This document shows, piece by piece, positions 1 through 52,674 of a stretch of DNA of 52,748 nt. The notes under the pieces are model-generated. The model saw only the letters and a program-made list of their open reading frames with translations. It was not told the origin of the DNA and searched no databases. The stretch comes from Escherichia phage LF82-19: sequence record PV660457. One strand, given 5' to 3'. Positions within the stretch are counted from its first letter, which is position 1. The number at the start of each line of letters is the position of its first letter. The position numbers and the translations under genes are program-made.

Positions 1-555
1 ATGTCACATGAAGAAGATAACGAATGGAAAAGCACGAGCGGCGCAGCCAATGAAGCGATCAAGAAAGGGAACTTTAAAGCACTGTATAACAAGAAGTATG
101 GCGACTTGTTTACGGTTTCAAAAAACCATGCTTTCACGCCTGAGCAGCTTTTTGATATGGCTGTTAAATACTTCACCTGGGCGGAAGAGAACGCGCTTAA
201 AGCAGCGGAAACGGCAAGCTTTCAGGGCATTGTGACTGAGAACCTCGTGCATAAGGTGCGCGTATTCACCCTTAACGGACTGTGCCTATTTTGCGGAATC
301 ACAGCCAACGCGATCCACAACTGGCGCAAGCAACCCGGATTTGGTGACGTGGTGGAGTTTATCGACAACGTGATCTATGAGCAGAAATTCCAGCTTGCGG
401 CTAACGGCATCATCAACGCCAGCTTTATTGGCAAGGAGATCGGCATTGATAAAGCGCCGGAAATTAACGTTGCAGCGACGGCGGCGGCTTCTGTTTCAGC
501 GCCAACCACTGAGGAAGTTAAAGACGCGGTGCGTGATATCCTGGGGGAATTATGA
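1..555 (+). CDS. terminase small subunit (putative)
   Basis: 184 aa ORF directly upstream of and overlapping (ATGA) the large terminase; size and position typical of TerS; no diagnostic motif. Confidence 0.5.
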   Translation: MSHEEDNEWKSTSGAANEAIKKGNFKALYNKKYGDLFTVSKNHAFTPEQLFDMAVKYFTWAEENALKAAETASFQGIVTENLVHKVRVFTLNGLCLFCGITANAIHNWRKQPGFGDVVEFIDNVIYEQKFQLAANGIINASFIGKEIGIDKAPEINVAATAAASVSAPTTEEVKDAVRDILGEL

Positions 556-5967: not shown

Positions 5968-5974
5968 TTAAACA

Positions 5975-5997
5975 GGGAGCTTCGGCTCCCTTTTTAT
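5975..5997 (+). terminator. rho-independent terminator
   Basis: GGGAGC-ttcg-GCTCCC then TTTTTATTT. Confidence 0.55.
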
Positions 5998-6028
5998 TTA
6001 TGTCTACCACAAAAAGATATTGACCGTT

Positions 6029-6043
6029 TAGCAAAAAGTGCTA
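6029..6043. promoter_or_regulatory. palindrome TAGCAAAAAGTGCTA within major-capsid promoter region
   Basis: lies in the spacer between TTGACC (6020-6025) and TATTAT (6042-6047); followed by hairpin GCGTGA ... TCACGC. Confidence 0.45.
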
Positions 6044-6090
6044 TTATTGACGCGTGACCTAATCACGCATTCAATCAAAAGGAAAATGTT

Positions 6091-7044
6091 ATGACCATGA
6101 AACTTGATTCATTCGAGCAGAACGAAATTACGGTAGGCCTTCGCAAGATGGGTGTTGCGGCAAGCAAAGCGGATCGCCTGGGTATCTGGACTGTAGAGCA
6201 GATGAAGCAGACGCTTAAGCGTCAGTATGAAGCGGCTTATCCCGAAACATCAGCGCTGGCGCTCTTCCCGGTTACAACCGAAATTGCACCAACAACCCGC
6301 ATCTTCGAATACATGAAGATTGACGGCGTGACCATGGCGAAAATCATCGCGGATTATACTGACGATCTGCCTCTGGTTGATGCGACCCATAGCCTGGAAA
6401 CAGGCCGCGTACACCGCCTGGGTAACGCGTGGATGATTTCCATTGACGAAATCAAAACTGGTGCGGCGCTGGGTTCTTCCCTGTCTGACCGCAAGGCAAC
6501 ACTGGCGCGCGAAGCGCACGAAACGCTGGTGAATACTCTGGTGTTCCAGGGTTCCAAGCCTCACAAAATTCTGTCTGTGTTCGACAACCCGAACATCACC
6601 CGCGTAACTTCAGCGGCTGGCGCGTGGGCTGACCCTGAAAAGGCAAGCGACGAACTGACGGATCTGATTGAGAAAATGGAAACCCTGACCAAAGGCAAGC
6701 ACAAGATCACCGATATTGTGATCCCGCCTTCTCAGCGTAAGATCCTGGCTAAGCGCATGCCGGAAACCACGATGAGTTACTTGCAGTGGTTTGAGTCTCA
6801 GAACGGCGGTATCACAATTAGCTCAATCTCTGAGCTTGAAGATATCGACGGCATCGGTACCAAAGGCATTCTTGCCTACGAGAAAGACCCGATGAACATG
6901 AGCATCGAGATCCCGGAAGCATTCAACATGCTCCCAATGCAGCCTAAAGACCTGCATTTCAAAGTGCCTTGTACGTCCAAGACTACTGGCCTGATCGTTT
7001 ATCGTCCTCTGACGATTATCTTGCTGGTTGGCGTAGGTAAGTAA
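6091..7044 (+). CDS. major capsid protein
   Basis: 317 aa, strong RBS, flanked by terminators, position in head module. Confidence 0.6.
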   Translation: MTMKLDSFEQNEITVGLRKMGVAASKADRLGIWTVEQMKQTLKRQYEAAYPETSALALFPVTTEIAPTTRIFEYMKIDGVTMAKIIADYTDDLPLVDATHSLETGRVHRLGNAWMISIDEIKTGAALGSSLSDRKATLAREAHETLVNTLVFQGSKPHKILSVFDNPNITRVTSAAGAWADPEKASDELTDLIEKMETLTKGKHKITDIVIPPSQRKILAKRMPETTMSYLQWFESQNGGITISSISELEDIDGIGTKGILAYEKDPMNMSIEIPEAFNMLPMQPKDLHFKVPCTSKTTGLIVYRPLTIILLVGVGK

Positions 7045-7079: not shown

Positions 7080-7147
7080 TTGACACGCTGCCGGAAAGTT
7101 TTGTATATTGACGGCTCACAAACAAGTAAACCAAAAGGTGAATTATC

Positions 7148-8245: not shown

Positions 8246-8681
8246 TTACCAGGTGCGCAAGTTTCACGGTGATATTTCTCGTTGGATTCTGCGCACTCAG
8301 AAGGGGCTAGAGGACGTGGTTAGAGAGTTCGTTAAATCGGTTCACGCGGAGCTTGTAAAGACCTCACCAGTAGATACAGGGCGATTCCGAGCTAACTGGC
8401 AGATAACCTATAACCACGTACCGCTATACGCTCTCAATGAGTACGACAAAACCGGAGAGAAAACGATCGCGTCAGGGGTTCGAATTGCAAACGCGTTGCC
8501 GTTGGGCAGAGGTGGCGCGGTTACTTCAATCTACTTTTCGAACATGTTAATCTATGCCAACGCGCTCGAATACGGGCATTCACGGCAAGCGCCAGCGGGT
8601 GTGCTGGGGTTGGTGGCGATACGCTTACGATCTCACATGGCGGCGGCGATTAAACAATCAAGGATTAAAAATGGTTTATGA
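8238..8681 (+). CDS. neck / tail component (putative)
   Basis: internal ATG at 8238 overlapping previous stop; track ORF 8163 extension rejected. Confidence 0.4.
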   Translation: MSNYQVRKFHGDISRWILRTQKGLEDVVREFVKSVHAELVKTSPVDTGRFRANWQITYNHVPLYALNEYDKTGEKTIASGVRIANALPLGRGGAVTSIYFSNMLIYANALEYGHSRQAPAGVLGLVAIRLRSHMAAAIKQSRIKNGL

Positions 8682-20741: not shown

Positions 20742-21115
20742 AGTCAACATGTCGTTCCTGTAGTTAGCTGTTAAGAAAATCACTTTCCGGCGATTTCGAT
20801 ACACGCAACTACAGAAAACTACAGCGTTATACATTGCGTAAGTATATATATAATAAGGGTTTATCTAATATTATTATTATTACTATATTCATGTTGTAGT
20901 TAGTGTAACGGTATCGTTTGGTGATTCCCGGATATCTTTTCGAATAGTTGAGTTAATTGTGTGGTTATTAGGATGCCGATACCTGGCTACCCCTCCGCAA
21001 TCCGCGTTAAAATCGATACACGCAACTACAGTCAGCATTCATGCGGGTTTGAAGGGTGTTTTTTGTAACGAATGCCATTATCGACAAAAAATAACACTAA
21101 CGACACGTTATATAT

Positions 21116-21143
21116 TTGACAAAGCGAATGAACCGCGTATACT
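21116..21143 (+). promoter_or_regulatory. strong sigma70-like early promoter
   Basis: TTGACA - 16 nt - TATACT, about 35 nt upstream of the exonuclease gene. Confidence 0.55.
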
Positions 21144-22232: not shown

Positions 22233-22274
22233 TAGCACTAAAAGCTAAACAAAAGCGGTGATGTTTGGTATAAT
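22233..22274 (+). promoter_or_regulatory. palindrome variant TAGCA-N5-AGCTA plus hairpin with TATAAT
   Basis: TAA-TAGCACTAAAAGCTA, 21 nt, TATAAT inside hairpin AGCGGTGA ... TCACCGCT. Confidence 0.45.
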
Positions 22275-23509: not shown

Positions 23510-23535
23510 AAAGGAGCCTTTCGGCTCCTTTTTTA
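23510..23535. terminator. bidirectional terminator between ssb and tail fiber
   Basis: AGGAGCC-tttc-GGCTCCT then TTTTTTATTT. Confidence 0.55.
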
Positions 23536-25752
23536 TTTCAGCAATAACGACTCAAGTTTAGCAAGGCGCTCTTCCATTTCCTCCATTCTGTTACCCATGT
23601 AAACCATAGCACAGGCCATATCAGTAAGCATGACGTTTGAATCAAGAGCTAGCGTATCGTCCTTAAATCCAGTCTCGATCTGCCTGGCAACGTACTCCTC
23701 ACCATTCTCGTTGACTCCGATAACATCTTCAAAGATCGGAGCGCCAGGGACTACTTTCACATACTGACTATCAACTTTATTCAAGTCCTGAGCAATCAGA
23801 CCGAATCTCTGTGTGTCAGATCCCTTATACTTGAACATGGTTGGGAGCCACTGCATTACGCGATCATAGCTCTCCTTTCCTTCGGTGTATTTGATATCCC
23901 ACTTAAGATCCCGGTCAGACGTTGGCGCTTTCTGGAATGTATACCCCCCATCCCATCCTCCACCCTGACCCCATGAGATAATATCTGATGATGGTGCATG
24001 GAATTCAAATCCGCGATGGTACGCACCATCACCAAGCATCTTAATTACTGCGCGAGGCCATCCGTTGTTCCCGCTAGAAATCATACCAAGAGAGGTATTC
24101 ATTCGATACCCGCCAGTTGATGTGGTTGCCCCTGAGATCAATGAAGCATATCCGGCATCATTACCCGTTACATCACCAGCAAAGAACGTACTCCCCATGT
24201 AATCATTTGGCTGCGCCCAACCTCCTTGAGTTAACTTACCAAGAAACCCCCTTGGAGAAGATATGTGACCGCCGTATGAGTTTATGAATTTAAACTCCTT
24301 CCAGTCACTTCCTTGGTTGTTCACTCCGATCTTGAAGTGATCAATATCAGTGCCACTACCGCGAACCCCCCCAATCTGCCAGTAACCAGAGTACCAGTTA
24401 CCTTGAACCAGGTTAACCCAACTATTAACAGAGCCATCACCAGCAGCGTTTTGAATCAGGATGTTTTTGTTTCCGCCACTCTGAGTTGAAACAACGATCG
24501 ATTTACCCTGCTTTGCCTCTACGTTTCCGTTTGTTGCAACCAGAGCGCCGCCGCTAATCGTTCCGACGGCTGTCAGCGATGCAACTCCGGTAATGTTCCC
24601 CGCCTCATCAAACTGATAGTAGTTCCCCTTTCCTCCAGCCGTGTTTGCCGTGTGAATCGTTGTCTTTACAACGCCGCCTTGTAGTTCATTGTAAAATCTT
24701 GAGTTTGATTGCAGCGTTGCGCCGTCAGCAGAAAGCCTTTTACTCTCAATCAGCCCCCCACTAGTTGCTGAGCCAAGTGTTGTAGCCTCCACGCCTCCAA
24801 ATCTCACCGCTTGACCCGAGCCGATACCAAGATTGTTTCTTGCTCCGTCAGCAGTTGTTGATCCAGTGCCACCAGATCCGATAGGGATCGGGATTACATT
24901 TCCGTTACTATCCTGCCACTGGAAAATCCCATCATCGCCAATCGTCAGCCTTTTTGTTCTATCTGGCGTGCTAATGTAGTTACGCGTTCCAATGTGGCGC
25001 AGCCAGTCAAGATCAAGGTTCGTCCTCGCGGCTTGTACGTCAGTAAGATCAGATAGGTTATTTGCCTTCTTTAGCTGTTCGTCAGGGTTAGCCGTTGCTG
25101 CGCGGTCTGCTTCAGCCTTGGCTCGTGCTGCATCGTCACGAGCGGCGGCGGCAGATTGCCCGGCGCTGGTTTCGCTGTTTGCTGCATTCGTCTCGCTTAC
25201 CCTGGCGGCATCCTTGCTGGCTCCGGCTTGGGTTGCGGCAACTTCGGCGGCAACGCGTTGCTGATAAGCTTGCTGGTTCTGGCTTCCGGCCTCGCTTGCA
25301 CTTTGTGCGGCGGCGTTCTTGCTTGCCTCAGCTTCGTTTGCGTTAACTTCAGTACGATCAGCATCAACGCGAACGGCAGACTGAAGATCTTTCAGCTCTT
25401 GCAGGTTAAAGTTCTTGAAGAAATCCATAGCCTCCTCGATCACAGTTTCCTTGCTTTGGTAGTAGCGCAGAGTTTCAGCCACATCTTGAGCAAGGCCATC
25501 AACAGTGATTGAGTCATGCAGCAGGATTACATAGTTCGTACCATCCGGCACAACTGCATCATCCGTTTGGATCGCTCGCATTTCCGTGTCACTCACGATC
25601 GCGGAAATAGTAACCAGCGTTAGTGGTTGAGTTAAAAACACCATCGTTGCCCCAACGCGAATCAGAGACAGCTTGTCTTGCCATTTCGTATCAACGCCAG
25701 TTACAACGCCGTTAGCGGCCAATCCCGCCGTTCCTCTACGATAAATCGCCAT
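23533..25752 (-). CDS. tail fiber with C-terminal peptidase S74 intramolecular chaperone domain
   Basis: C-terminus DRDLKWDIKY ... GLIAQDL ... LAKLESLL typical of the autocleaving chaperone domain of fibers/endosialidases; Gly/Ser/Thr-rich beta-like middle; start at ATG 25752. Confidence 0.75.
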   Translation of the reverse strand: MAIYRRGTAGLAANGVVTGVDTKWQDKLSLIRVGATMVFLTQPLTLVTISAIVSDTEMRAIQTDDAVVPDGTNYVILLHDSITVDGLAQDVAETLRYYQSKETVIEEAMDFFKNFNLQELKDLQSAVRVDADRTEVNANEAEASKNAAAQSASEAGSQNQQAYQQRVAAEVAATQAGASKDAARVSETNAANSETSAGQSAAAARDDAARAKAEADRAATANPDEQLKKANNLSDLTDVQAARTNLDLDWLRHIGTRNYISTPDRTKRLTIGDDGIFQWQDSNGNVIPIPIGSGGTGSTTADGARNNLGIGSGQAVRFGGVEATTLGSATSGGLIESKRLSADGATLQSNSRFYNELQGGVVKTTIHTANTAGGKGNYYQFDEAGNITGVASLTAVGTISGGALVATNGNVEAKQGKSIVVSTQSGGNKNILIQNAAGDGSVNSWVNLVQGNWYSGYWQIGGVRGSGTDIDHFKIGVNNQGSDWKEFKFINSYGGHISSPRGFLGKLTQGGWAQPNDYMGSTFFAGDVTGNDAGYASLISGATTSTGGYRMNTSLGMISSGNNGWPRAVIKMLGDGAYHRGFEFHAPSSDIISWGQGGGWDGGYTFQKAPTSDRDLKWDIKYTEGKESYDRVMQWLPTMFKYKGSDTQRFGLIAQDLNKVDSQYVKVVPGAPIFEDVIGVNENGEEYVARQIETGFKDDTLALDSNVMLTDMACAMVYMGNRMEEMEERLAKLESLLLK

Positions 25753-25775
25753 TGTCAACACCTCTTGTTAGTAAA

Positions 25776-25790
25776 TAGCACGAATTGCTA
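25776..25790. promoter_or_regulatory. palindrome TAGCACGAATTGCTA downstream of tail-fiber -10
   Basis: lies between the extended -10 and the RBS of the tail fiber gene, opposite in orientation to early-promoter copies. Confidence 0.45.
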
Positions 25791-25796
25791 AAACGC

Positions 25797-25805
25797 ATTA
25801 TATCA
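25797..25805 (-). promoter_or_regulatory. extended -10 element (TGATATAAT) for tail fiber gene
   Basis: TGnTATAAT on minus strand about 45 nt upstream of ATG. Confidence 0.4.
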
Positions 25806-25817: not shown

Positions 25818-25841
25818 ATAAAAAACCCTCCGAAGAGGGTT
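25818..25841 (-). terminator. rho-independent terminator after primase
   Basis: on minus: AACCCTC-ttcg-GAGGGTT then TTTTTTATT. Confidence 0.5.
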
Positions 25842-26842: not shown

Positions 26843-27301
26843 TCATTGATTAGCTTTTCGTGCTTTCAGTGTTTTCCAGGATGGTTGCTCCGGCTTGGTT
26901 TCTAACTCTTCCTTTCTCACCACGCGCAGCATGTGACGCTTTTTGCATCGGACTGTTAGCGGCTTGCCGTTGCCGTCGAATGACAGATCAGGGCGGCACC
27001 ACGACGCGCGGAAACCTCCGCCATTTCGTTTATATGCGTTGTGCGCCAGTTGCGCGCCTCGCGCTGAAATCATGCCGCGTTGCCGCCACTCATAAACAAC
27101 CTGAAGCGAAACGCGCAATTCTTTCGCCAGCTTTGCAGGTGAGCCGTAGAATTCAAGGATGGTATCTAATCTAGCCTTAAGCCCGGCCTTTACTTCGTCT
27201 CGTAAAACATAGTAACCTACTGGACGTTTTCGGCGCTTAGCGTCACTTCCGCGCTTCGTTCCATTGTTCCCATTAAGCGTGCGTTTATCTACGGTTTCCA
27301 T
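26843..27301 (-). CDS. HTH DNA-binding protein (Cro/YdaS-like, putative regulator)
   Basis: AKLAKELRVSLQVVYEWRQRG HTH-like segment; basic N- and C-termini; divergent from helicase promoter. Confidence 0.5.
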   Translation of the reverse strand: METVDKRTLNGNNGTKRGSDAKRRKRPVGYYVLRDEVKAGLKARLDTILEFYGSPAKLAKELRVSLQVVYEWRQRGMISARGAQLAHNAYKRNGGGFRASWCRPDLSFDGNGKPLTVRCKKRHMLRVVRKEELETKPEQPSWKTLKARKANQ

Positions 27302-27314
27302 AATTATTCCTCAA

Positions 27315-27356
27315 TAGCATTTTTTGTTAAAACTGGATTGTTGAGGCGTGTATTAT
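27315..27356 (+). promoter_or_regulatory. palindrome TAGCA-N5-TGTTA plus -10 TATTAT
   Basis: TAGCATTTTTTGTTA, 21 nt, TATTAT; upstream of helicase operon. Confidence 0.5.
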
Positions 27357-27393
27357 ATCAATCAAACGAACGAACATCAAAGGCATTAACACG

Positions 27394-29463: not shown

Positions 29464-29879
29464 TTACTGACAAGGGCGATTATCTTGAATATTACACCCC
29501 TGATAAGGGGTGTACCCTGAAGGAAGAGACTCACCAGGTTAACGGCGTTTCGTGGCTAAAGTACCACTACCCAAACCTGATGTTTTGGCACACGGTCAAC
29601 GAGGGGCAGAAGCACATAAACACAGCCCTAAAAGATGAGCAAGCCGGGCTTAAGAAAGGTGTCAGCGACTTCGTATTTCTGATTGGTCATTTCGATCGGA
29701 AATATTGCTTTGGGGCTATTGAGCTGAAGCGCACCAACAAGAGCGGAAAGTACAAGGCATCACCAGTCAGTAAGGAGCAGAAAGCTTTCCTTCTCGGTGT
29801 GCGTGAACGTGGGGGGTTCGCGGCTGTGGCTTACGGATTCGAGGAGTTGAAGAAAGCCGTTGAGGACATGATGAAATAG
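29460..29879 (+). CDS. VRR-NUC-like nuclease
   Basis: 139 aa with D ... SDFVFL ... IELK PD-(D/E)xK-like motif; overlaps helicase stop. Confidence 0.55.
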   Translation: MITDKGDYLEYYTPDKGCTLKEETHQVNGVSWLKYHYPNLMFWHTVNEGQKHINTALKDEQAGLKKGVSDFVFLIGHFDRKYCFGAIELKRTNKSGKYKASPVSKEQKAFLLGVRERGGFAAVAYGFEELKKAVEDMMK

Positions 29880-29919
29880 CACTATTTGCTAAACCTGTGC
29901 CGGAACAATCCGGCATAAT
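29877..29919 (+). promoter_or_regulatory. palindrome TAGCA-N5-TGCTA plus hairpin with CATAAT
   Basis: stop codon TAG is the first half-site; 22-nt gap; upstream of dam. Confidence 0.5.
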
Positions 29920-30665: not shown

Positions 30666-30878
30666 ATGGCTACTGCATTCGGACTGTATAAGGCAAAAGT
30701 TATTCGCGCTCTGATGGCGGCTGGATTCAAGCACAACGCGGAGGAATTCGCTGATTGCCTTGATATGAGCTTTGACGAGATCAAGCATCTTCACCACACG
30801 CAATGGGGAGAATCAATCAAGCGCGATCTCGAAGAGTACCGGAAAGAGAATCCGCACGAATTCGCAACACAGCACTAA
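30666..30878 (+). CDS. hypothetical protein
   Basis: 70 aa ORF, 2 nt after dam stop. Confidence 0.4.
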   Translation: MATAFGLYKAKVIRALMAAGFKHNAEEFADCLDMSFDEIKHLHHTQWGESIKRDLEEYRKENPHEFATQH

Positions 30879-30912
30879 TTGCTAAACGTACCCGGCGAAA
30901 GTCGGGTATTAT
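30870..30912 (+). promoter_or_regulatory. palindrome cAGCA-N5-TGCTA plus -10 TATTAT
   Basis: stop TAA inside spacer; 22-nt gap. Confidence 0.45.
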
Positions 30913-31746: not shown

Positions 31747-32883
31747 ATGTCACTGAAGAAAATCACCGACGAGCAGTTAAACGCCGAGCGAGAGTCGGGT
31801 AAAACTTACCGCCAGATCGCGGAAGAGTACGGAATGAACATACGCACCGTCGAGGCTCGCGGCGCACGCCTGGCTAAGAAAGGTTTCGGTCACGGTAACG
31901 GCGATGCATCGCGATTTGTTCCAGAAGGCTTCATGGTTAAGGGCACATCAACCATGCACCGCGCGAACGGAGAGGTTATCGTTAGCTGGACGAAAACCAA
32001 TCAGGATCATGAGAAGTTAGCCGCCATGCTTGAGCACGCGATCGAGGCGTTTTGCGTTGAGCTTCCACGCGCAGCCGCTACACCTTCCAACGTTGGTGAG
32101 GTGATGGAGAACCAGCTCGCGCTTTATCCTGTATTCGATCTGCATATCGGTGCAATGGCTCATAAGCATGAGTGCGGCGAGAACTACTCAACCGATATTG
32201 CCGAGAAGGTTTTGGGCGATTTCTTCAAGTACGCTGTGAACGTTGCGCCGAAGGCGAAGAAGGCGGTTGTGCTGGTTGGCGGTGACTACCTCCACTCTGA
32301 CGGCCTGGACGCTGTAACACCCGCAAGCGGTCACGTTCTGGATCAGGACTCACGTTACGCTAAGCTGGTTCACGTTGCCATTCGCTCACTCCGTCGCGGC
32401 GTTGCGCTTCTGCTTGATAAGCATGAAGAGATTGAGATCCAGATTATCGAAGGCAACCACGATCAGGCGGGTATGATTTGGCTACGCGCTGCAATGGCGG
32501 CATACTTCGAAGATGAGCCGCGCGTCACGGTTGACACATCGCCTATGATCCTTCACCGTACCAAGTGGGGCAAAACGCTGTTAGGCTACACTCACGGTCA
32601 CACGATGAAGAAAGCAGAAACCCGCCTCCAGGCGCTGGCTACTGACTTCCGTTCTGAGTTCGGCACGAGTGAATTCGTTTATACTCACTCAGGGCATTGG
32701 CATCACCAGACGCTTACAGAGCACACCTTAGGCATTGACGAGGTTCACGGTCAGTTAGGTGCCAAAGATGCGTATGCGGCTCGCGGTGGATGGCGCTCAT
32801 ATCGCCAGGCGGCGGTAATTGTCTATGATAAAGAATTTGGCGAGGTAGGCCGATTCGTTTATCGTCCTCAGATGAGCAAATAG
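31747..32883 (+). CDS. HTH domain fused to calcineurin-like metallophosphoesterase
   Basis: N-terminal TYRQIAEEYGMNIRTVEARGARL HTH; then DLHIG, GGDYLHSDG, EGNHD, GHTH, GHWHH metallophosphatase motifs. Confidence 0.6.
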   Translation: MSLKKITDEQLNAERESGKTYRQIAEEYGMNIRTVEARGARLAKKGFGHGNGDASRFVPEGFMVKGTSTMHRANGEVIVSWTKTNQDHEKLAAMLEHAIEAFCVELPRAAATPSNVGEVMENQLALYPVFDLHIGAMAHKHECGENYSTDIAEKVLGDFFKYAVNVAPKAKKAVVLVGGDYLHSDGLDAVTPASGHVLDQDSRYAKLVHVAIRSLRRGVALLLDKHEEIEIQIIEGNHDQAGMIWLRAAMAAYFEDEPRVTVDTSPMILHRTKWGKTLLGYTHGHTMKKAETRLQALATDFRSEFGTSEFVYTHSGHWHHQTLTEHTLGIDEVHGQLGAKDAYAARGGWRSYRQAAVIVYDKEFGEVGRFVYRPQMSK

Positions 32884-32923
32884 CACTTTTTGTTAAAAGC
32901 CGATCGCGTTGGTCGGCTATACT
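32881..32923 (+). promoter_or_regulatory. palindrome TAGCA-N5-TGTTA plus hairpin with TATACT
   Basis: TAG stop is the first half-site; 22-nt gap. Confidence 0.5.
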
Positions 32924-36638: not shown

Positions 36639-36682
36639 ATGATAGAGCAACCAATGATAGTGCGTTTTGGCAAAAAGTGCTA
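36639..36682 (-). promoter_or_regulatory. palindrome TAGCA-N5-TGCCA plus long hairpin with TATCAT
   Basis: 23-nt gap; 10-bp stem TTGGTTGCTC/GAGCAACCAA with TATCAT in loop. Confidence 0.45.
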
Positions 36683-37132: not shown

Positions 37133-37175
37133 ATAATAACAAAACCCGCCGAAGCGGGTTTAACAAAAAGTGCTA
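37133..37175 (-). promoter_or_regulatory. palindrome plus terminator-like hairpin plus -10 TATTAT
   Basis: on minus: TAGCACTTTTTGTTA-AACCCGCTTCGGCGGGTTTTG-TTATTAT; same 40-nt element as 48965-49007. Confidence 0.5.
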
Positions 37176-38816: not shown

Positions 38817-38859
38817 ATTATTGCAGATCACGCCGATTTAGTTTTAACAAAAAGTGCTA
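38817..38859 (-). promoter_or_regulatory. palindrome TAGCA-N5-TGTTA plus hairpin with AATAAT
   Basis: TAG stop of upstream gene is the first half-site; 22-nt gap. Confidence 0.5.
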
Positions 38860-39691: not shown

Positions 39692-39734
39692 ATTATGCCG
39701 GGTTTCCGCCCGGCACGTTTAGCAATTAGTGCTA
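39692..39734 (-). promoter_or_regulatory. palindrome TAGCA-N5-TGCTA plus hairpin with CATAAT
   Basis: on minus: TAGCACTAATTGCTA, 22 nt (GTGCCGGG ... CCCGGC hairpin), CATAAT. Confidence 0.5.
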
Positions 39735-39978: not shown

Positions 39979-40021
39979 ATAATAGCAAAAGCCAGATCGG
40001 GAGTTTTAGCAAAAAGTGCTA
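39979..40021 (-). promoter_or_regulatory. palindrome TAGCA-N5-TGCTA plus -10 TATTAT
   Basis: 22-nt gap; palindrome itself flanked by inverted repeat CCGGATCGGGA / TCCCGATCTGG. Confidence 0.5.
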
Positions 40022-41398: not shown

Positions 41399-41441
41399 AC
41401 TATAGCCGAAACATCCTGAGTGGTTTTAGCAAAAAGTGCTA
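41399..41441 (-). promoter_or_regulatory. palindrome TAGCA-N5-TGCTA plus -10 TATAGT
   Basis: 22-nt gap; leftmost promoter of the minus-strand early operon. Confidence 0.5.
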
Positions 41442-41562
41442 TTGATTCGATTTATCCAATTATTCCATTATTCCAACTATTCTGGAATATTCCTGAATAA
41501 CCGAATATCTGGAATAGTCAAAATGACTATGGCTCTCCGTTCGTTTTAGCGAACAAACGTTC

Positions 41563-41582
41563 GATGTGATGTGATGTGATGT
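41563..41582. repeat. (GATGT)x4 tandem repeat
   Basis: GATGTGATGTGATGTGATGT in divergent control region. Confidence 0.6.
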
Positions 41583-42015: not shown

Positions 42016-42044
42016 TTGACTACAATTAAGCTTTTCCGCATTAT
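42016..42044 (+). promoter_or_regulatory. strong sigma70-like early promoter
   Basis: TTGACT - 17 nt - CATTAT, about 30 nt upstream of first plus-strand early gene. Confidence 0.55.
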
Positions 42045-42076
42045 GGCGGCTCAACCAATCAGATGAGGTATCACCC

Positions 42077-42798: not shown

Positions 42799-42841
42799 TA
42801 GCACGAACTGCTAAAACACCAGATCGGGGCTATGCCATAAT
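42799..42841 (+). promoter_or_regulatory. palindrome TAGCA-N5-TGCTA plus hairpin with CATAAT
   Basis: 22-nt gap; hairpin GGGGCTA ... TAGCCCC. Confidence 0.5.
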
Positions 42842-43294: not shown

Positions 43295-43599
43295 TGATTT
43301 TGAATGACCGAGAGGAGCTACAGGAAGCCGTGAGACTGGCGCTAAAATCAGACGTGCCATTTATCGAAGTTGTGCTTTGCGTGGCTGCCAGCCTCGATGT
43401 ACGGCCCCGTGTGGCTGCTTTCATGGTTCACTCTAACACCTTCGATATGGCTGGCACATTCCAGGGTGATAAATTCCTTGAATTCTTGATGCAGCTAACC
43501 GATAAGTTCGAAGCCATGCATCCTGACCGGATAAGCGCCAGTGGGCAGATCCTGATCGAGGAGTTCACCAACTTTGTGATTCGCGGTACATGGCGATAG
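43291..43599 (+). CDS. hypothetical protein
   Basis: ATGATG start overlapping previous stop. Confidence 0.45.
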   Translation: MMILNDREELQEAVRLALKSDVPFIEVVLCVAASLDVRPRVAAFMVHSNTFDMAGTFQGDKFLEFLMQLTDKFEAMHPDRISASGQILIEEFTNFVIRGTWR

Positions 43600-43639
43600 C
43601 ACTTTTTGTTAAACGTGTGCCGGGCTAATCCGGCATACT
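43597..43639 (+). promoter_or_regulatory. palindrome TAGCA-N5-TGTTA plus hairpin with CATACT
   Basis: TAG stop is the first half-site; hairpin TGCCGG ... CCGGCA; 22-nt gap. Confidence 0.5.
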
Positions 43640-43948: not shown

Positions 43949-44268
43949 TGAAAAAGTTTGTCGGATCGTGTTTGCTGGTTTCTGTCCTGGCGCTGGCGTT
44001 CATCGCTCTCGCAGGGTGTGACGACTCAACCCGCGTGCCTCGTGAGCAGCGTAGCAAGGTGCGGGTCACAACGGCTGAATCCGGGCGCGTGCAGGTGCGC
44101 AAGATCAGCGAATTCCGTGACGACCTGGCTTATGACAGCTATCGAGGCGTGTACATCATCACGGACACTGAAACCGGGCAGGAGTTCATAGGCGTTAGCG
44201 GTGTTGGTATCAGTGCTATCGGGCAACACAATTGCGGCAAAAACTGCTGGAAGAAAGATGAGAGATAG
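43948..44268 (+). CDS. lipoprotein (early-expressed)
   Basis: MKKFVGSCLLVSVLALAFIALAGC: signal peptide with lipobox LAGC. Confidence 0.55.
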   Translation: MKKFVGSCLLVSVLALAFIALAGCDDSTRVPREQRSKVRVTTAESGRVQVRKISEFRDDLAYDSYRGVYIITDTETGQEFIGVSGVGISAIGQHNCGKNCWKKDER

Positions 44269-44308
44269 CACTTTTTGTTAAAACTGCCCGGAGCGATTCG
44301 GGCATAAT
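44266..44308 (+). promoter_or_regulatory. palindrome TAGCA-N5-TGTTA plus hairpin with CATAAT
   Basis: hairpin GCCCG ... CGGGC; 22-nt gap. Confidence 0.5.
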
Positions 44309-44337
44309 GATTTCACACCAAACGAGAGGAAGTGAAA

Positions 44338-45174: not shown

Positions 45175-45217
45175 TAGCACGAATTGCTAAAACGGCATGG
45201 CTCCTGAGTGGTATCAT
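45175..45217 (+). promoter_or_regulatory. palindrome TAGCA-N5-TGCTA plus hairpin with TATCAT
   Basis: hairpin ACGGCATG ... CATGCCGT; 22-nt gap. Confidence 0.5.
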
Positions 45218-45249: not shown

Positions 45250-45615
45250 ATGAAAGTTAAATGCATTAGTTCAGACGTTTTGCTTGATGGTTACTACACC
45301 CCAGGTAGAGTCTACCGATTAAGGCGAGAAAGGGGCAAAAGCTATAGAACCGTTAAATCAAACAGAGGCGTTGATCTTGGTGTTATCCACGACCCATTAA
45401 AAAGAGGTCGGTTTTTCGTTGCTGGATTTGAACGTTGTGTGTTTGATTCGGCTCCGCACCGATTCGTGAAGCGCAACCAAAGCGCCGCGCTGGGGCAGAT
45501 TGAGATCGACTATACGCGATGCAAGCGCAGCATTCGCAATCAGGCTCGCAACATCGCAAAAGAGCACTTCTCGTGCGGCAAGCTTGAGAAGATTGCGCGA
45601 GGCTATAAGCGATAG
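45250..45615 (+). CDS. small basic protein, MKVKC family member
   Basis: MKVKCI ... YYTPGRVY; Arg/Lys-rich. Confidence 0.5.
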   Translation: MKVKCISSDVLLDGYYTPGRVYRLRRERGKSYRTVKSNRGVDLGVIHDPLKRGRFFVAGFERCVFDSAPHRFVKRNQSAALGQIEIDYTRCKRSIRNQARNIAKEHFSCGKLEKIARGYKR

Positions 45616-45655
45616 CACTTTTTGCTAAAACTTCCGCAAGGGCATTTGATATAGT
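45613..45655 (+). promoter_or_regulatory. palindrome TAGCA-N5-TGCTA plus hairpin with TATAGT
   Basis: hairpin AAGGGCA ... TGCCCTT; 22-nt gap. Confidence 0.5.
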
Positions 45656-45695
45656 GCCCTTATTGAAGCAGAGCAAACCAATCAGAGGATTCAAC

Positions 45696-46519: not shown

Positions 46520-46708
46520 ATGCAGATCTACAAATCGCCAGGCGGAGCAAGATATGTCGTTGTTGATGGCGTTGTTTACTGCAAGCCAGCAGATGGAAGC
46601 ATGGTTTACAGGCCGCGCATGACGGTTGAGCGATATCTTGAGCTTATCGCTGGCGGTCTTCTGACATTCCATTGCGTTATTCGCCCGGTAATGTTCAAAA
46701 AGCACTAA
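46520..46708 (+). CDS. hypothetical protein
   Basis: 62 aa. Confidence 0.4.
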   Translation: MQIYKSPGGARYVVVDGVVYCKPADGSMVYRPRMTVERYLELIAGGLLTFHCVIRPVMFKKH

Positions 46709-46742
46709 TTGCTAAAACTTGCTAAGAGGCATTTGTTATAGT
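46700..46742 (+). promoter_or_regulatory. palindrome aAGCA-N5-TGCTA plus hairpin with TATAGT
   Basis: stop TAA inside spacer; hairpin AAGAGGCA ... TGCCTCTT; 22-nt gap. Confidence 0.5.
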
Positions 46743-46780: not shown

Positions 46781-47485
46781 ATGAGCATTCAACGCTACTA
46801 CCCTGAAGTGAAGTACACAGTGCGGGAAACTCGCGTTAATATGGCTCCACACGAGCGCGGAAGCTATGTGACCTATGAATCACACATCGAAGAATTGCGC
46901 CGCGTACAGGCCGAATTAGACGCCTTAAAAGCGATGCAAAAAAGCGATTTTTTCTATCACCTAAAGCCAGTCTTCGAAAAGGCGCTTGAAGAGGCGATTG
47001 CTATCGTCGTGAAGCAAGCCAGCCAATCAGTTTTCAAGGTTGACGCTGAGGCGCTAATTGCTGCTGACGTTGGCCGTTGGATGGAGAAGCACATGAACGA
47101 GCGCGCCGGATTTGCAACTGGCAGCCTGTTTGTGGGTGATGTAGAGGTTGATTTCGACAACAACAAAGTCAAGATCACCGATGCGCTAATCAAGAGCGGC
47201 GTTGTGACTGAAAGCGAATTATTCTCTTTCCCTAAGGCACGAAAGAACATTGTCGTTTGCACAAGCGCCGATGAAGGTAGCGGTTTCACTATTGGAAAGA
47301 AATACGCATTCGATCGCAATGAAGGGAACATTATCCGAATCTGCCAGGATGATTTTGTTTCAGATCTCGCAGAGGATGATTGCTGGATTGCAAGCCGCCG
47401 CCGAAACCTGGTAAGCGGTGAATTCAGATACTTCTTACAGGGGCATACAGAAGGCAAGCGCGCATCTTTCGAGATCGTTGAATAG
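46781..47485 (+). CDS. hypothetical protein with C-terminal MKVKC-family-like segment
   Basis: 234 aa; internal VVCTSADEGSGFTIGKKY matches the family motif. Confidence 0.5.
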   Translation: MSIQRYYPEVKYTVRETRVNMAPHERGSYVTYESHIEELRRVQAELDALKAMQKSDFFYHLKPVFEKALEEAIAIVVKQASQSVFKVDAEALIAADVGRWMEKHMNERAGFATGSLFVGDVEVDFDNNKVKITDALIKSGVVTESELFSFPKARKNIVVCTSADEGSGFTIGKKYAFDRNEGNIIRICQDDFVSDLAEDDCWIASRRRNLVSGEFRYFLQGHTEGKRASFEIVE

Positions 47486-47525
47486 CACGAATTGTTAAAC
47501 GGGCATGTGTTCCGACTGGTATCAT
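47483..47525 (+). promoter_or_regulatory. palindrome TAGCA-N5-TGTTA plus -10 TATCAT
   Basis: 22-nt gap; CCGACTGGTATCAT resembles 45175 and 49742 copies. Confidence 0.5.
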
Positions 47526-48964: not shown

Positions 48965-49007
48965 TAGCACTTTTTGTTAAACCCGCTTCGGCGGGTTTTG
49001 TTATTCT
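48965..49007 (+). promoter_or_regulatory. palindrome plus terminator-like hairpin plus -10 TATTCT
   Basis: TAGCACTTTTTGTTA-AACCCGCTTCGGCGGGTTTTG-TTATTCT; inverted duplicate of 37133-37175. Confidence 0.5.
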
Positions 49008-49574: not shown

Positions 49575-49744
49575 AGACTTTTATTATTTTCCTAGTTGGC
49601 GCTTGCATGGTTAGCGTTTCTGATAACTTCACAGTTTTCGTTGGCGCTGCGATGGTGTCGTGGGCTTACTACCGATGCGGAAAGGCTGACGGAATAGCGG
49701 AAGGTAAACGCCAGGCGCTGGCATCCGGCACTAAGTTAAAGTAG
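49571..49744 (+). CDS. small membrane peptide (GTG start, 57 aa; uncertain)
   Basis: GTGA overlap with previous stop; two hydrophobic segments; ends at TAG that forms the next palindrome half-site. Confidence 0.25.
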   Translation: MKTFIIFLVGACMVSVSDNFTVFVGAAMVSWAYYRCGKADGIAEGKRQALASGTKLK

Positions 49745-49784
49745 CACGATTTGTTAAAAGGGGATTCGTCCTGACTGGTATAAT
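49742..49784 (+). promoter_or_regulatory. palindrome TAGCA-N5-TGTTA plus hairpin with TATAAT
   Basis: hairpin GGGGATT ... AATCCCC; 22-nt gap. Confidence 0.5.
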
Positions 49785-50329: not shown

Positions 50330-50758
50330 ATGAAATTACGTTGCACATTCCTTGAGCCAGCTTTCGCAAAAGCTCTGGCTGAGTTCTACACCATCGGCAA
50401 AACTTACGCCGCATCCATCAAGCCGGGATCAAAGGTTGGCGCTGTGCTGGTGGAGTCAAACGAAGGCAATGAAGGCGATCAGCTTGCAGCAGTTCCGAGC
50501 CGCTCAGGGTTCGAGGTTCAAATTAAGAACCAAATTCCGATCGCAAAGTTCGAGGTTGTTGGCAAGCGTGCGGTGAAGCTTGTTAAGACTGAGAAGCGCG
50601 TAACGCTGAAACTTGATGGCGTGGGGAAATCAGATAAGCGCCGATTCCGCCGTGTTTGCCGCCAGTATCGAAAGTTGAAATTCATCAACCCTGGATTCTA
50701 TTATGATCTGGAATCCGATCGCCACATGGCTAAACTTGCGCGACATCACCGCCGATAG
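50330..50758 (+). CDS. MKLRC family protein
   Basis: MKLRCT ... FYTIGKTY; basic C-terminus; preceded by hairpin AAGGCCG-tttataatag-CGGCCTT. Confidence 0.5.
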   Translation: MKLRCTFLEPAFAKALAEFYTIGKTYAASIKPGSKVGAVLVESNEGNEGDQLAAVPSRSGFEVQIKNQIPIAKFEVVGKRAVKLVKTEKRVTLKLDGVGKSDKRRFRRVCRQYRKLKFINPGFYYDLESDRHMAKLARHHRR

Positions 50759-50798
50759 CACTTTTTGCTAAAACTCGAAATCGGGGTTGCGATATAGT
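50756..50798 (+). promoter_or_regulatory. palindrome TAGCA-N5-TGCTA plus hairpin with TATAGT
   Basis: hairpin GGGGTT ... AACCCC; 22-nt gap. Confidence 0.5.
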
Positions 50799-52668: not shown

Positions 52669-52674
52669 TAAACA

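What the first reader, a model, noticed from the sequence alone, without database searches (positions are those of the whole stretch)
6020..6047. Inverted-orientation palindrome copies sit inside late promoters (major capsid, tail fiber)
At the major capsid gene the palindrome (6029-6043) has the opposite spacer polarity to the early copies and lies between a TTGACC -35-like hexamer and a TATTAT -10, overlapping the -10. At the tail fiber gene (palindrome 25776-25790) it lies just downstream of an extended -10 (TGATATAAT, minus strand, 25797-25805) and before the RBS. Operator-within-promoter placement is what a repressor site looks like, so the same DNA-binding factor might activate early promoters and repress or time late genes.
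Basis: inference. Interest (0 to 1): 0.5.

Follow-up and report, generated by a model that had tools for sequence, protein, structure and literature searches.

The report
Reversed marbox-like sites in late promoters
The two "inverted palindromes" are real, family-wide conserved reversed copies of the T1-like phages' unexplained 21-base repeat, which matches the binding site and promoter geometry of the host stress regulators MarA/SoxS/Rob, so one factor could switch early genes on and capsid and tail-fibre genes off.

Summary
Observation confirmed. The window is a T1-like (Drexlerviridae) coliphage. TAGCA-N5-TGCTA occurs 24 times with at most 1 mismatch (1.3 expected).

- **Forward copies:** 22 copies point with the downstream gene and lie exactly 22 nt from an extended -10.
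- **Reversed copies:** the capsid copy fills the spacer of TTGACC-16-TGcTATTAT. The tail-fibre copy starts 6 nt after TGATATAAT. A third lies in the leader of the phage regulator gene. All three positions recur in related phages (capsid 77/78 loci).
- **Identity:** the element is the known 21-nt repeat of TLS/T1, whose function is an open question. It is not a true palindrome. Its consensus, ATAGCACkwwTTGyTAAAm, matches both published marbox definitions. The forward copies reproduce the E. coli micF class II geometry: 18 bp to the -10, centre -40.5.
- **Precedent:** marboxes inside core promoters repress (pbpG). The MarA/SoxS-repressed rob promoter shares 17/19 bases with the capsid promoter core.

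Best reading: host MarA/SoxS/Rob-type proteins activate from forward sites and repress from reversed ones. The main rival is the phage Cro-like regulator Pir. No binding was tested here, and timing remains inference.

The parts
6025..6044 (-). It occupies about -29 to -10 of the capsid promoter.
   Evidence: 0 mismatches to AYnGCACnnWnnRYYAAAYn and to gcannwwntgnnaaa. Conserved in 77/78 related capsid loci.
6020..6025 (+). -35 hexamer TTGACC of the capsid promoter.
   Evidence: TTGNNN at this register in all 48 distinct related sequences.
6039..6047 (+). Extended -10, TGcTATTAT, of the capsid promoter. Its TGcTA is the GTGCTA arm of the site.
   Evidence: TG present in 48/48 distinct related sequences. 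KP36 annotators mark a promoter at the same place.
5974..5991 (+). Intrinsic terminator stem-loop insulating the capsid promoter from upstream transcription.
6091..7044 (+). Major capsid protein gene.
25775..25794 (+). 20-bp marbox-like site ATAGCACGAATTGCTAAAAC (15-mer 25776-25790), reversed relative to the minus-strand tail-fibre gene. It occupies about -4 to +16 of that promoter.
   Evidence: Conserved in T1, Rtp, NBD2, HazelMika and 8/13 further loci, at 6-12 nt after the -10.
25797..25805 (-). Extended -10, TGATATAAT, of the tail-fibre promoter; no -35 hexamer.
   Evidence: TGnTAnAAT-type element at the same place in relatives.
25824..25841 (-). Intrinsic terminator stem-loop after the primase gene, upstream of the tail-fibre promoter.
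23533..25752 (-). Tail-fibre gene. Start taken as the ATG at 25752, which follows AGAGG and encodes MAIYR as in relatives.
27314..27333 (+). Marbox-like site ATAGCATTTTTTGTTAAAAC (15-mer 27315-27329). It is forward, in class II position, for the helicase promoter, and reversed at about +12 to +31 of the regulator (pir) promoter.
   Evidence: Present with 0 mismatches in 13/13 related loci and all named genomes.
27352..27380 (-). Regulator promoter TTGATG-17-TGaTATAAT. Its -10 overlaps, face to face, the helicase -10 TATTAT (27351-27356, + strand).
   Evidence: 10/12 with TG. KP36 annotators mark a promoter here.
26843..27301 (-). Cro-like HTH regulator, homolog of T1 Orf23/Pir (55% identity). 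It is the rival candidate for binding the site.
   Evidence: T1 experiments in PMC6737242.
19703..19717 (-). Forward (class II-type) copy: 22 nt, then TATAAT.
22233..22247 (+). Forward copy: 21 nt, then TGgTATAAT (erf/ssb operon).
29877..29891 (+). Forward copy: 22 nt, then CATAAT (before the Dam methylase gene; the equivalent of T1 Pdam).
30870..30884 (+). Forward copy: 22 nt, then TATTAT.
32881..32895 (+). Forward copy: 22 nt, then TATACT.
36668..36682 (-). Forward copy: 23 nt, then TATCAT.
37161..37175 (-). Forward copy: 22 nt, then TATTAT.
38845..38859 (-). Forward copy: 22 nt, then AATAAT.
39720..39734 (-). Forward copy: 22 nt, then CATAAT.
40007..40021 (-). Forward copy: 22 nt, then TATTAT.
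41427..41441 (-). Forward copy: 22 nt, then TATAGT.
42799..42813 (+). Forward copy: 22 nt, then CATAAT.
43597..43611 (+). Forward copy: 22 nt, then CATACT.
44266..44280 (+). Forward copy: 22 nt, then CATAAT.
45175..45189 (+). Forward copy: 22 nt, then TGgTATCAT.
45613..45627 (+). Forward copy: 22 nt, then TGaTATAGT.
46700..46714 (+). Forward copy: 22 nt, then TGtTATAGT.
47483..47497 (+). Forward copy: 22 nt, then TGgTATCAT.
48965..48979 (+). Forward copy: 22 nt, then TATTCT.
49742..49756 (+). Forward copy: 22 nt, then TGgTATAAT.
50756..50770 (+). Forward copy: 22 nt, then TATAGT.

Best explanation
The element is a 20-bp asymmetric protein-binding site, ATAGCAC-kww-TTGyTAAAm. In sequence, orientation and spacing it cannot be told apart from the enterobacterial marbox, the site bound as a monomer by the host AraC-family regulators MarA, SoxS and Rob (RamA in Klebsiella).

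- Forward sites (22 promoters): the site is centred at about -40.5, replaces the -35 hexamer, and lies 18 bp upstream of an extended -10. This is the class II arrangement, in which the bound protein contacts sigma-70 region 4 and an alpha C-terminal domain and stimulates initiation.
- Capsid promoter: the same site is turned round and placed in the -35/-10 spacer. Its GTGCTA arm is itself the TGnTA of the extended -10. A bound protein would therefore compete with sigma-70 and repress.
- Tail-fibre promoter: the reversed site covers the start point (about -4 to +16) and would block open-complex formation or promoter escape.
- Regulator promoter: the third reversed copy lies in the leader. It also serves as the forward site of the divergent helicase promoter, whose -10 overlaps the regulator's, giving a small switch.

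Shown here: the sequences, the geometry, the conservation and the match to the marbox. Inferred: that MarA/SoxS/Rob-type proteins are the binders, and that the reversed sites repress.

Further inferred: late promoters would be released when the factor runs out. This could happen by titration on replicating genomes carrying 24 sites each, or because MarA and SoxS are Lon-labile and stop being made once the phage shuts the host down.
For: 1. A weight matrix from 88 forward modules in five genomes gives A T A G C A C K W W T T G Y T A A A M, then 18 nt, TGnTAnaaT, 6 nt, and A at +1.
2. This satisfies AYnGCACnnWnnRYYAAAY (PMC3709825) at 13 of 14 specified positions. It satisfies gcannwwntgnnaaa (PMC12052159) at every position. 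The latter pattern matches 22 times in the window against 1.2 expected, always at copies of the motif.
3. Asymmetry: G3 is 88/88, but its mirror position is C in only 50/88. C6 is 83/88, but its mirror is G in 2/88. A0 is 81/88, and its mirror is A, not T, in 85/88. The marbox is described as non-palindromic and bound by a monomer.
4. Geometry: the E. coli micF class II promoter reads ACAGCACTGAATGTCAAAAC, 18 bp, TAGAAT. The phage modules have the same 18 bp, and micF's site centre is about -41. Class II is defined as a forward site overlapping the -35.
5. The chromosomal mar marbox ATGCCACGTTTTGCTAAATC is 16/20 identical to the phage consensus.
6. Precedent for repression: the pbpG marbox lies in the promoter spacer and the promoter is repressed by MarA/SoxS/Rob. 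rob is repressed by MarA and SoxS, and its promoter core CAGCAAAAAATGCTATTAT matches the capsid promoter core at 17/19 in the same register.
7. Conservation of the reversed copies: capsid 77/78 loci with fixed -35, TG and -10; tail fibre; regulator leader 13/13.
8. The motif and its geometry are unchanged in E. coli and Klebsiella phages of different genera. In KP36, 13/13 exact marbox matches are followed by a -10 at 18+/-1 bp.
9. Forward-module promoters (Pdam, Porf65) are active in phage-free E. coli, so host proteins suffice.
Against: - No binding or expression experiment exists for any of these sites.
- In unstressed laboratory cells MarA and SoxS are low, and Rob is held in inactive aggregates. 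T1-like phages nevertheless grow very well, so these factors cannot be strictly required.
- 85% of the forward promoters carry a TG-extended -10 and may work without any activator.
- The 5+5 symmetric arms are more regular than the marbox consensus requires, and would suit a dimeric HTH protein.
- In T1, the phage regulator Pir activates Pdam and represses its own promoter, which is what a Pir-binding site would give.
- Position 19 of the marbox (Y) is A in 64% of phage copies, although micF also has A there.
- At tail-fibre copies the third A of the AAA element is often G or T.
- The accessible literature does not link rob, marA or soxS to T1-like phage growth.
Confidence: 0.5

Rival explanations
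1. The site is the operator of the phage's own Cro-like regulator (homolog of T1 Orf23/Pir, window 26843-27301). The regulator would bind as a dimer to the TAGCA-N5-TGCTA arms. It would activate from about -42, as lambda cI does at PRM, and repress when the site lies inside a promoter.
For: - The protein is a single Cro/cI-type HTH domain: Pfam P22_Cro/YdaS hits; AlphaFold model at pLDDT 87 with best PDB matches to Xfaso-1 Cro and N15 Cro.
- Its gene is conserved next to a copy of the site in every genome examined.
- In T1, plasmid-borne Pir activates Pdam, a forward-copy promoter, and represses its own promoter, which has a reversed copy in its leader.
- The arms are 10 bp apart centre to centre, as expected for a dimer.
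Against: - The HTH helices are the least conserved part of the family: mean column identity 0.53-0.54, against 0.75-0.83 elsewhere. Exposed positions of helix 3 are hypervariable. The DNA motif, by contrast, is invariant across the same phages.
- Conserved positions outside the arms (A0, C6, T10, A16, A17) are not symmetric.
- In T1, Porf65, a perfect forward copy, does not respond to Pir. Phol and PrecE, which have no copy, do respond. Pir response therefore does not track the motif.
- If a phage protein made after infection were the repressor, the capsid and tail-fibre promoters would fire first and be shut off later, which is the wrong order.
Confidence: 0.2
2. No trans-acting factor acts at the reversed copies. 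The sequence is conserved because it is itself a good core promoter (TGnTA of an extended -10 plus an A-tract spacer). Alternatively, the reversed copies are relics of a duplicated module, and the capsid and tail-fibre promoters are simply constitutive.
For: - The GTGCTA arm supplies the TG and the first two bases of the -10 in every capsid promoter.
- Rtp has a capsid promoter without the motif, and the TLS group has a tail-fibre promoter without it.
- The Webervirus capsid copies are degenerate.
Against: - The half of the site that has no promoter role (TARCAA plus the preceding gtt) is as conserved as the -35 and -10 in 48 distinct sequences, while the flanks vary freely.
- At the tail fibre the whole 15-mer lies downstream of the -10 at variable distance (6-12 nt), yet is conserved with 0 mismatches across subfamilies.
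Confidence: 0.1
3. Another conserved factor reads the site: a different host protein (for example Lrp, whose remembered consensus YAGHAWATTWTDCTR fits the arms) or an unidentified phage protein.
For: - The arms TAGCA/TGCTA fit YAGHA/TDCTR (from memory, not checked against a source).
- Many small early phage proteins have no assigned function.
Against: - The invariant C6 and the K at position 7 violate the W and A of the Lrp consensus, and the flanking AAA is left unexplained.
- The full 20-bp match and the 18-bp geometry are specific to the marbox.
- T1 Orf65, the other regulator reported in T1, has no homolog in this window, NBD2, HazelMika or Rtp.
Confidence: 0.12
4. The element acts as an RNA hairpin: a 5'-terminal stabiliser on the tail-fibre mRNA, or a 3' structure on upstream transcripts.
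For: - The tail-fibre copy begins at about +1, so it would be transcribed.
- The arms can pair.
Against: - The hairpin is weak: -3.0 kcal/mol, falling to -0.5 in the half of forward copies with TTGTTA. It is not used in the minimum-energy fold of the tail-fibre leader.
- Variation at position 13 (C/T) is not compensated at position 3.
- The capsid copy lies in a promoter spacer behind a terminator and would not be transcribed.
Confidence: 0.04

Closest known systems
Class II marbox promoters of the E. coli mar/sox/rob regulon (micF, lpxC, lpxL, rfaY)
   Same: 20-bp asymmetric site matching AYnGCACnnWnnRYYAAAY. Forward orientation, overlapping and replacing the -35. 18 bp to the -10 hexamer, as in micF. 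Centre about -41. Measurable activator-independent activity.
   Different: About 20 such promoters are packed into one 50-kb virulent phage genome and drive nearly all early and middle genes. The phage sites are far less degenerate than chromosomal marboxes and have perfectly symmetric 5-bp arms. Binding by MarA/SoxS/Rob has not been tested.
Promoters repressed by MarA/SoxS/Rob through a marbox in the core promoter (pbpG; rob; purA and hdeA from memory)
   Same: Marbox inside the core promoter, in the spacer for pbpG. The rob promoter core CAGCAAAAAATGCTATTAT matches the capsid promoter core TAGCAAAAAGTGCTATTAT at 17/19, with the same TGcTATTAT extended -10.
   Different: Which bases form the published rob marbox could not be checked, because the paper is not held. 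Read in the same register as the phage site, the rob sequence has 4 mismatches to the 20-bp consensus. The phage sites control virion genes.
The 21-nt intergenic direct repeats of phage TLS, also reported for T1, Rtp and Rogue1 (PMC11447400)
   Same: Same consensus, aaATAGCACnnnTTGnTAAAA. Same T, G and A subtypes of the central triplet. Same position between genes.
   Different: That paper describes copies in the direction of transcription only and leaves their function open (stoperator, enhancer or UP element). The reversed copies in late promoters, the fixed 22-nt distance to a -10, and the match to the marbox are not described there.
Lambda cI at OR (and Mu Mor/C): one phage protein activating from about -42 and repressing from sites within a promoter
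   Same: Site centred near -42 at activated promoters. The same site inside the -35/-10 region of repressed promoters. Autoregulation at a divergent promoter pair.
   Different: Those sites are two-fold symmetric and read by a dimer whose recognition helix is conserved with its operators. Here the site is asymmetric, and the candidate phage protein's HTH is hypervariable.
T4 middle promoters (MotA box with AsiA)
   Same: A phage-wide promoter class that keeps a sigma-70 -10 and replaces the -35 with a conserved box (from memory: TTTGCTTTA at -30).
   Different: The box position differs (-30 against -40.5). The T4 system needs two phage proteins, and no homologs are annotated here. The phage promoters here are active in uninfected cells.

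Membership tests
Drexlerviridae 21-nt intergenic repeat (TLS 'DR' element) | Consensus aaATAGCACnnnTTGnTAAAA | tested here: met
   Both copies in the finding and the 22 forward copies fit it.
Drexlerviridae 21-nt intergenic repeat (TLS 'DR' element) | Lies in the direction of transcription, about 76 nt upstream of a start codon | tested here: not met
   Met by the 22 forward copies. The capsid and tail-fibre copies point against the flanking gene and lie 47 and 23 nt from the ATG.
Marbox (MarA/SoxS/Rob/RamA binding site) | Matches AYnGCACnnWnnRYYAAAY and gcannwwntgnnaaa | tested here: met
   Capsid copy: 0 mismatches to both. Tail-fibre copy: 1 and 0 mismatches. 22 exact matches to the second pattern in the window, against 1.2 expected.
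Marbox (MarA/SoxS/Rob/RamA binding site) | Non-palindromic, with a defined orientation | tested here: met
   Conserved positions 0, 6, 10, 13, 16 and 17 break two-fold symmetry in 88 modules.
Marbox (MarA/SoxS/Rob/RamA binding site) | Bound by MarA, SoxS or Rob | not testable with these tools
   Needs gel-shift, footprinting or ChIP experiments. No such data were found.
Class II marbox promoter | Forward site overlapping the -35 position, centre about -41, 18 bp before the -10 as in micF | tested here: not met
   Not met by the two copies in the finding, which are reversed and centred at about -19.5 and +6. Met by the 22 forward copies of the window and by 88 modules in five genomes.
Marbox-repressed promoter (pbpG/rob type) | Marbox centred between -35 and +25 of an activator-independent sigma-70 promoter | tested here: met
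   Capsid: site in the spacer of TTGACC-16-TGcTATTAT. Tail fibre: site at about -4 to +16 after TGATATAAT. Positional criterion taken from PMC12052159.
Marbox-repressed promoter (pbpG/rob type) | Transcription falls when the regulator is present | not testable with these tools
   Needs reporter assays or in vitro transcription.
Operator of a dimeric Cro/cI-type phage regulator | Two-fold symmetric site | tested here: inconclusive
   The 5+5 arms are symmetric. The remaining conserved positions are not.
Operator of a dimeric Cro/cI-type phage regulator | The cognate protein's recognition helix is conserved together with the operator | tested here: not met
   Helix 3 of the Pir family is hypervariable, while the motif is invariant.
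Sigma-54 promoter (TGGCAC-N5-TTGC) | GG and GC dinucleotides with 10 bases between them (11 bp start to start), about 12 bp upstream of the start point | tested here: not met
   The spacing is 2 bp too short, AG replaces GG, and a sigma-70 extended -10 follows at a fixed distance.

The most novel reading that the evidence does not exclude
T1-like phages have built nearly their whole transcription programme on the host's MarA/SoxS/Rob/RamA stress regulators.

- About 20 early and middle promoters are class II marbox promoters.
- The capsid, tail-fibre and regulator promoters carry the same site reversed, as an operator.
- Site orientation would therefore encode early-on and late-off.
- Phage development would be coupled to antibiotic, bile and oxidative stress signals.
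- Loss or titration of a labile host factor would act as the early-to-late timer.
- The capsid promoter may even descend from, or converge on, the host rob promoter.
Probability: 0.4. Interest if true: 0.8.

Novelty: new variant of a known kind. Interest (0 to 1): 0.62.

Why it matters
The function of the 21-base repeats of T1-like phages is listed as an open question in the 2024 TLS paper. T1 is a classical phage whose transcriptional control is almost unknown.

Reading the repeats as marbox-type sites turns that question into simple experiments:
- gel shifts with MarA, SoxS, Rob and Pir;
- reporter fusions in a rob marA soxS triple mutant;
- point mutations that separate a monomeric marbox reader from a symmetric dimer.

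The forward copies sit in class II geometry and the reversed copies sit inside late promoters. If the host-factor reading holds, a common family of coliphages and Klebsiella phages, including therapy candidates and laboratory contaminants, would tie its gene expression to the regulators that control multidrug resistance. These regulators also act on efflux and porin genes; the efflux channel TolC is the TLS receptor. Antibiotic, salicylate or bile exposure could then change infection outcome.

Tried and rejected
- **Sigma-54 promoter.** TAGCAC-N3-TTGC resembles TGGCAC-N5-TTGC, but the spacing is 2 bp short and a sigma-70 extended -10 follows at a fixed distance.
- **TTGYTA as a displaced -35.** A 22-bp spacer is outside the sigma-70 range. 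The true -35 position reads AAAACN.
- **Lrp site.** Only the arms fit a consensus recalled from memory. C6 and the flanking AAA do not fit. Kept only as a minor rival.
- **RNA hairpin.** It is weak and shows no compensatory changes.
- **Antisense promoter from the reversed copies.** There is no -10 at 22 nt: TAGACA at the capsid site and AGGCAA at the tail-fibre site.
- **A phage-encoded MarA, SoxS or Rob homolog.** Pfam found no AraC-type domain in the seven proteins scanned.
- **T1 Orf65 as the general reader.** It has no homolog in the window, NBD2, HazelMika or Rtp.
- **A k-mer shared by the Pir-responsive T1 promoters (hol, dam, pir, recE).** None of 8 nt or more was found.
- **Literature.** No transcription-start map for Drexlerviridae. 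No paper linking marboxes or MarA/SoxS to T1-like phages. A bare search for ATAGCAC was uninformative. The rob-repression papers (Schneiders and Levy 2006; Chubiz 2012) are not held, so the exact published rob marbox could not be verified.
Full report
**Source and observation**

The window is a T1-like siphophage. It is identical over the 4-kb region tested to Escherichia phage LF82-10 and related to vB_EcoS_NBD2 (Vilniusvirus, Drexlerviridae).

- 6029-6043 is TAGCAAAAAGTGCTA. It lies between TTGACC (6020-6025) and TATTAT (6042-6047).
- 25776-25790 is TAGCACGAATTGCTA. On the minus strand it follows TGATATAAT (25805-25797) after 6 nt, and it precedes the ribosome-binding site and ATG of the tail-fibre gene.
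- The promoter scan reports TTGACC-16-TATTAT with an upstream TG (10/12) as the only hit near the capsid gene. It also finds an intrinsic terminator just upstream.
- TAGCA-N5-TGCTA occurs 11 times exactly (0.05 expected) and 24 times with at most one mismatch (1.3 expected).

**Anatomy of the ordinary copies**

Printed in the direction of the downstream gene, 22 of the 24 copies read TAGCAC-nnn-TTGYTA-AAA and usually overlap the stop codon of the preceding gene. They are followed after 22 nt (21 or 23 in three cases) by a good -10, often with TG. A CA-rich leader, a Shine-Dalgarno sequence and the ATG come next.

A weight matrix was built from 88 such modules in this phage, T1, TLS, Rtp and NBD2. 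It gives A T A G C A C K W W T T G Y T A A A M, then 18 unconserved nt, then T-G-n-T-A-n-a-a-T with G at -14 in 85% of modules, then A at the predicted +1 in 86%. These are therefore real sigma-70 promoters that lack a -35 hexamer and carry a conserved box centred at about -40.5.

**What the literature says about the repeat**

The repeat is already known. The 2024 re-annotation of phage TLS describes a 21-nt direct repeat, aaATAGCACnnnTTGnTAAAA, at 21 places, 18 of them intergenic. The copies lie in the direction of transcription, about 76 nt upstream of start codons. The repeat is also present in T1, Rtp and Rogue1. The authors suggest stoperators, enhancer sites or UP elements, and they list its function among the open questions about T1-like phages.

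They do not describe reversed copies, a fixed distance to a -10, or any candidate binding protein.

**The box is a marbox in sequence and geometry**

The element is not a true palindrome. Only the arms TAGCA/TGCTA are symmetric, and the other conserved positions are not (all counts):
- G3 is 88/88, while its mirror position is C in 50 and T in 35.
- C6 is 83/88, while its mirror is G in only 2/88.
- A0, A16 and A17 are all A.

The 20-bp consensus satisfies the published consensus for the MarA/SoxS/Rob site, AYnGCACnnWnnRYYAAAY (PMC3709825), at 13 of 14 specified positions. It satisfies the ChIP-derived definition gcannwwntgnnaaa (PMC12052159) at every position. That second pattern matches 22 times in the window against 1.2 expected, and every match is a copy of the motif.

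The same papers describe the marbox as non-palindromic, oriented and bound by a monomer. At class II promoters it lies forward and overlaps the -35. At micF it is centred at about -41.

I fetched the chromosomal micF promoter. It reads ACAGCACTGAATGTCAAAAC, 18 bp, TAGAAT, which is exactly the 18 bp found in the phage modules. The chromosomal mar marbox, ATGCCACGTTTTGCTAAATC, is 16/20 identical to the phage consensus.

In Klebsiella phage KP36 (Webervirus), all 13 exact marbox matches are followed by a -10 at 18+/-1 bp.

**The reversed copies**

Across the five named genomes, the strong copies not followed by a -10 at 22 nt are mainly the capsid and tail-fibre ones. T1 also has non-canonical copies at 105-119 (minus strand) and at 8363-8377 (forward, abutting the terS ribosome-binding site).

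Capsid copy:
- In 77 of 78 related capsid loci (capsid protein identity 54-92%), the reversed copy lies in the same register.
- The architecture is an A-tract, TTGNNN, 3 nt, TARCAAwwwRTGCTA, with the final TA being the first two bases of the -10. TG is present in all 48 distinct sequences, while the flanks vary.
- The GTGCTA arm therefore doubles as the TGnTA of an extended -10, so a bound protein and sigma-70 would compete for the same bases.
- Rtp keeps the promoter but lacks the motif.

Tail-fibre copy:
- It is present with no mismatch in T1, Rtp, NBD2, HazelMika and 8 of 13 further loci.
- It always follows a terminator and a TGnTAnAAT element, at 6 to 12 nt.
- It is absent from the TLS group.

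Third reversed copy:
- The site at 27315-27329 is the forward box of the helicase promoter.
- It also lies at about +12 to +31 of the divergent promoter of the regulator gene, TTGATG-17-TGaTATAAT (10/12 with TG). The -10 of that promoter overlaps the helicase -10 face to face.
- This arrangement is present in 13/13 loci and in all named genomes examined (T1, TLS, Rtp, NBD2).

T1 also has a copy in the spacer of a promoter before the tape-measure chaperone gene.

**Precedents for repression**

PMC12052159 treats marboxes centred between -35 and +25, in either orientation, as candidate repressor sites. It shows that the pbpG marbox, which overlaps the promoter spacer, mediates repression by MarA, SoxS and Rob.

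rob itself is repressed by MarA and SoxS. From memory of Schneiders and Levy 2006, which is not held here, its marbox lies between the -35 and -10 hexamers. The rob promoter fetched from MG1655 reads CAGCAAAAAATGCTATTAT. This is 17/19 identical to the capsid promoter core TAGCAAAAAGTGCTATTAT, in the same register.

**Who binds?**

*Host MarA/SoxS/Rob (RamA in Klebsiella).*
- This explains every conserved position, the asymmetry, the 18-bp geometry and the invariance of the motif across phage genera and hosts.
- It also fits the report that the forward-copy promoters Pdam and Porf65 of T1 are active in phage-free E. coli.
- The phage encodes no detectable MarA-like protein.

*The phage regulator.*
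- The window protein 26843-27301 is 55% identical to T1 Orf23/Pir. Its confident AlphaFold model (pLDDT 87) best matches the all-helical Cro proteins of Xfaso-1 and N15.
- In T1, Pir activates Phol and Pdam and represses Ppir and PrecE. Porf65 does not respond to Pir (PMC6737242).
- Pdam and Ppir carry the motif, but so does Porf65, while Phol and PrecE do not. Pir response therefore does not track the motif.
- The HTH helices are the least conserved part of the Pir family, with mean column identity 0.53-0.54 against 0.75-0.83 elsewhere and hypervariable exposed positions in helix 3. A protein reading 24 invariant sites per genome should have a frozen recognition helix.
- The iterons upstream of recE, in contrast, differ between T1 and this phage. 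They are better candidates for Pir sites.

*Against the host reading.*
- MarA and SoxS are scarce without stress, and Rob is held in inactive aggregates without an inducer.
- T1-like phages nevertheless grow well in the laboratory.
- The promoters' extended -10 elements may make them largely independent of any activator.

I put the host-factor reading at 0.5, Pir at 0.2 and other readings at the remainder.

**Mechanism and timing (inferred)**

Forward sites at -40.5 recruit RNA polymerase by the class II route. The reversed site in the capsid promoter spacer (about -29 to -10) occludes sigma-70 regions 2.4 and 3.0. The reversed site at the tail-fibre start point (about -4 to +16) blocks open-complex formation or promoter escape.

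A factor already present at infection would hold the virion-gene promoters down while the early promoters run. Release could come from two sources:
- Titration on replicating genomes, each carrying 24 sites.
- Decay of Lon-labile MarA and SoxS once host expression stops.

None of this has been tested.

**Rejected readings**

The following readings were considered and set aside:
- a sigma-54 promoter: the spacing is 2 bp short;
- TTGYTA as a displaced -35;
- an antisense promoter from the reversed copies: there is no -10 at 22 nt;
- an RNA hairpin: -3.0 kcal/mol, falling to -0.5 in half the copies, with no compensatory change;
- T1 Orf65 as the general reader: it has no homolog here.

**Verdict**

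The placement is that of an operator, and the same site is in activator position elsewhere. However, the site is an oriented marbox-like element rather than a palindrome, the binder is unproven, and the timing role is inference.
- The repeat itself is known. New, as far as the accessible literature shows, are its fixed class II geometry, its identity with the marbox, and the conserved reversed copies in the capsid, tail-fibre and regulator promoters.

Noticed in passing
window 44281-44308, 45628-45660, 48980-49007 and most other forward modules: The 22-nt spacer between the box and the -10 usually contains a GC-rich hairpin of variable sequence, and the hairpin sometimes encloses the -10. T1 and KP36 annotators label several of these as rho-independent terminators. 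Terminator and promoter therefore appear to overlap in one intergenic module.
   Followed up: partly
window, downstream of each forward-module -10 (e.g. 44309-44331): There is a conserved C/A-rich leader (ACACCAAACAAAC...) lacking G and T, between a conserved A at the predicted +1 and the Shine-Dalgarno sequence. It may act as a translational enhancer.
   Followed up: no
window 20755-21031: Iterons AACTACAG/CTGTAGTT (at least 5 copies, including a 19-nt exact repeat TCGATACACGCAACTACAG) flank a TA-rich tract upstream of recE. T1 has different iterons (TGTAACA) at the same place. This may be an origin, or the true operators of the variable Pir HTH; in T1, Pir represses PrecE.
   Followed up: partly
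window 41442-42076: A 635-bp non-coding divergent region contains ATTATTCC repeats, (GATGT)x4.4 at 41563-41584 and a TA-rich tract at 41739-41765. It also holds a degenerate forward box at 41633 and a plain sigma-70 promoter, TTGACT-17-CATTAT, before the gene at 42077. That promoter is a likely immediate-early start.
   Followed up: no
window 52151-52238: A tRNA-Ser (anticodon GCT) gene lies upstream of the terminase genes. NBD2 has one at the equivalent place.
   Followed up: yes
L102 (E. coli MG1655 rob promoter) versus window 6029-6047: The host rob promoter core CAGCAAAAAATGCTATTAT matches the phage capsid promoter core at 17/19 in the same register. It is preceded by a similar A-tract followed by CAC. 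This could reflect promoter capture or convergence.
   Followed up: partly
L002 (T1) 18835-18849 and 8363-8377: T1 has an extra reversed copy in the spacer of a TTAACT-16-TGcTATCAA promoter before the tape-measure chaperone gene. It also has a forward copy abutting the terS ribosome-binding site, with no room for a promoter. Neither is present in this window.
   Followed up: partly
window 27351-27357: The -10 hexamers of the divergent regulator (minus strand, TATAAT) and helicase (plus strand, TATTAT) promoters occupy the same bases (gtgTATTATAtc). This is conserved across genera. The two promoters should be mutually exclusive.
   Followed up: partly
window 26843-27301 (protein residues 5-24): The N-terminal arm of the Pir family (DKRtxNGNNGTxRG..K..RKR) is much more conserved than its HTH, with invariant or nearly invariant D5 K6 R7 N10 G11 N12 N13 G14 R17 R24. 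It has low model confidence. It may contact a conserved partner.
   Followed up: no
window 52669-52717: The terS promoter is a terminator followed by the extended -10 TGGTATAAT, with no box. Other box-free sigma-70 promoters lie at 2118-2147 (before the portal gene), 7080-7109 and 21116-21143 (recE).
   Followed up: no
window 23533-25761 versus PV660453.1 23533-25899: The window is about 147 bp shorter than the deposited LF82-10 genome, and the difference lies within the tail-fibre gene.
   Followed up: no
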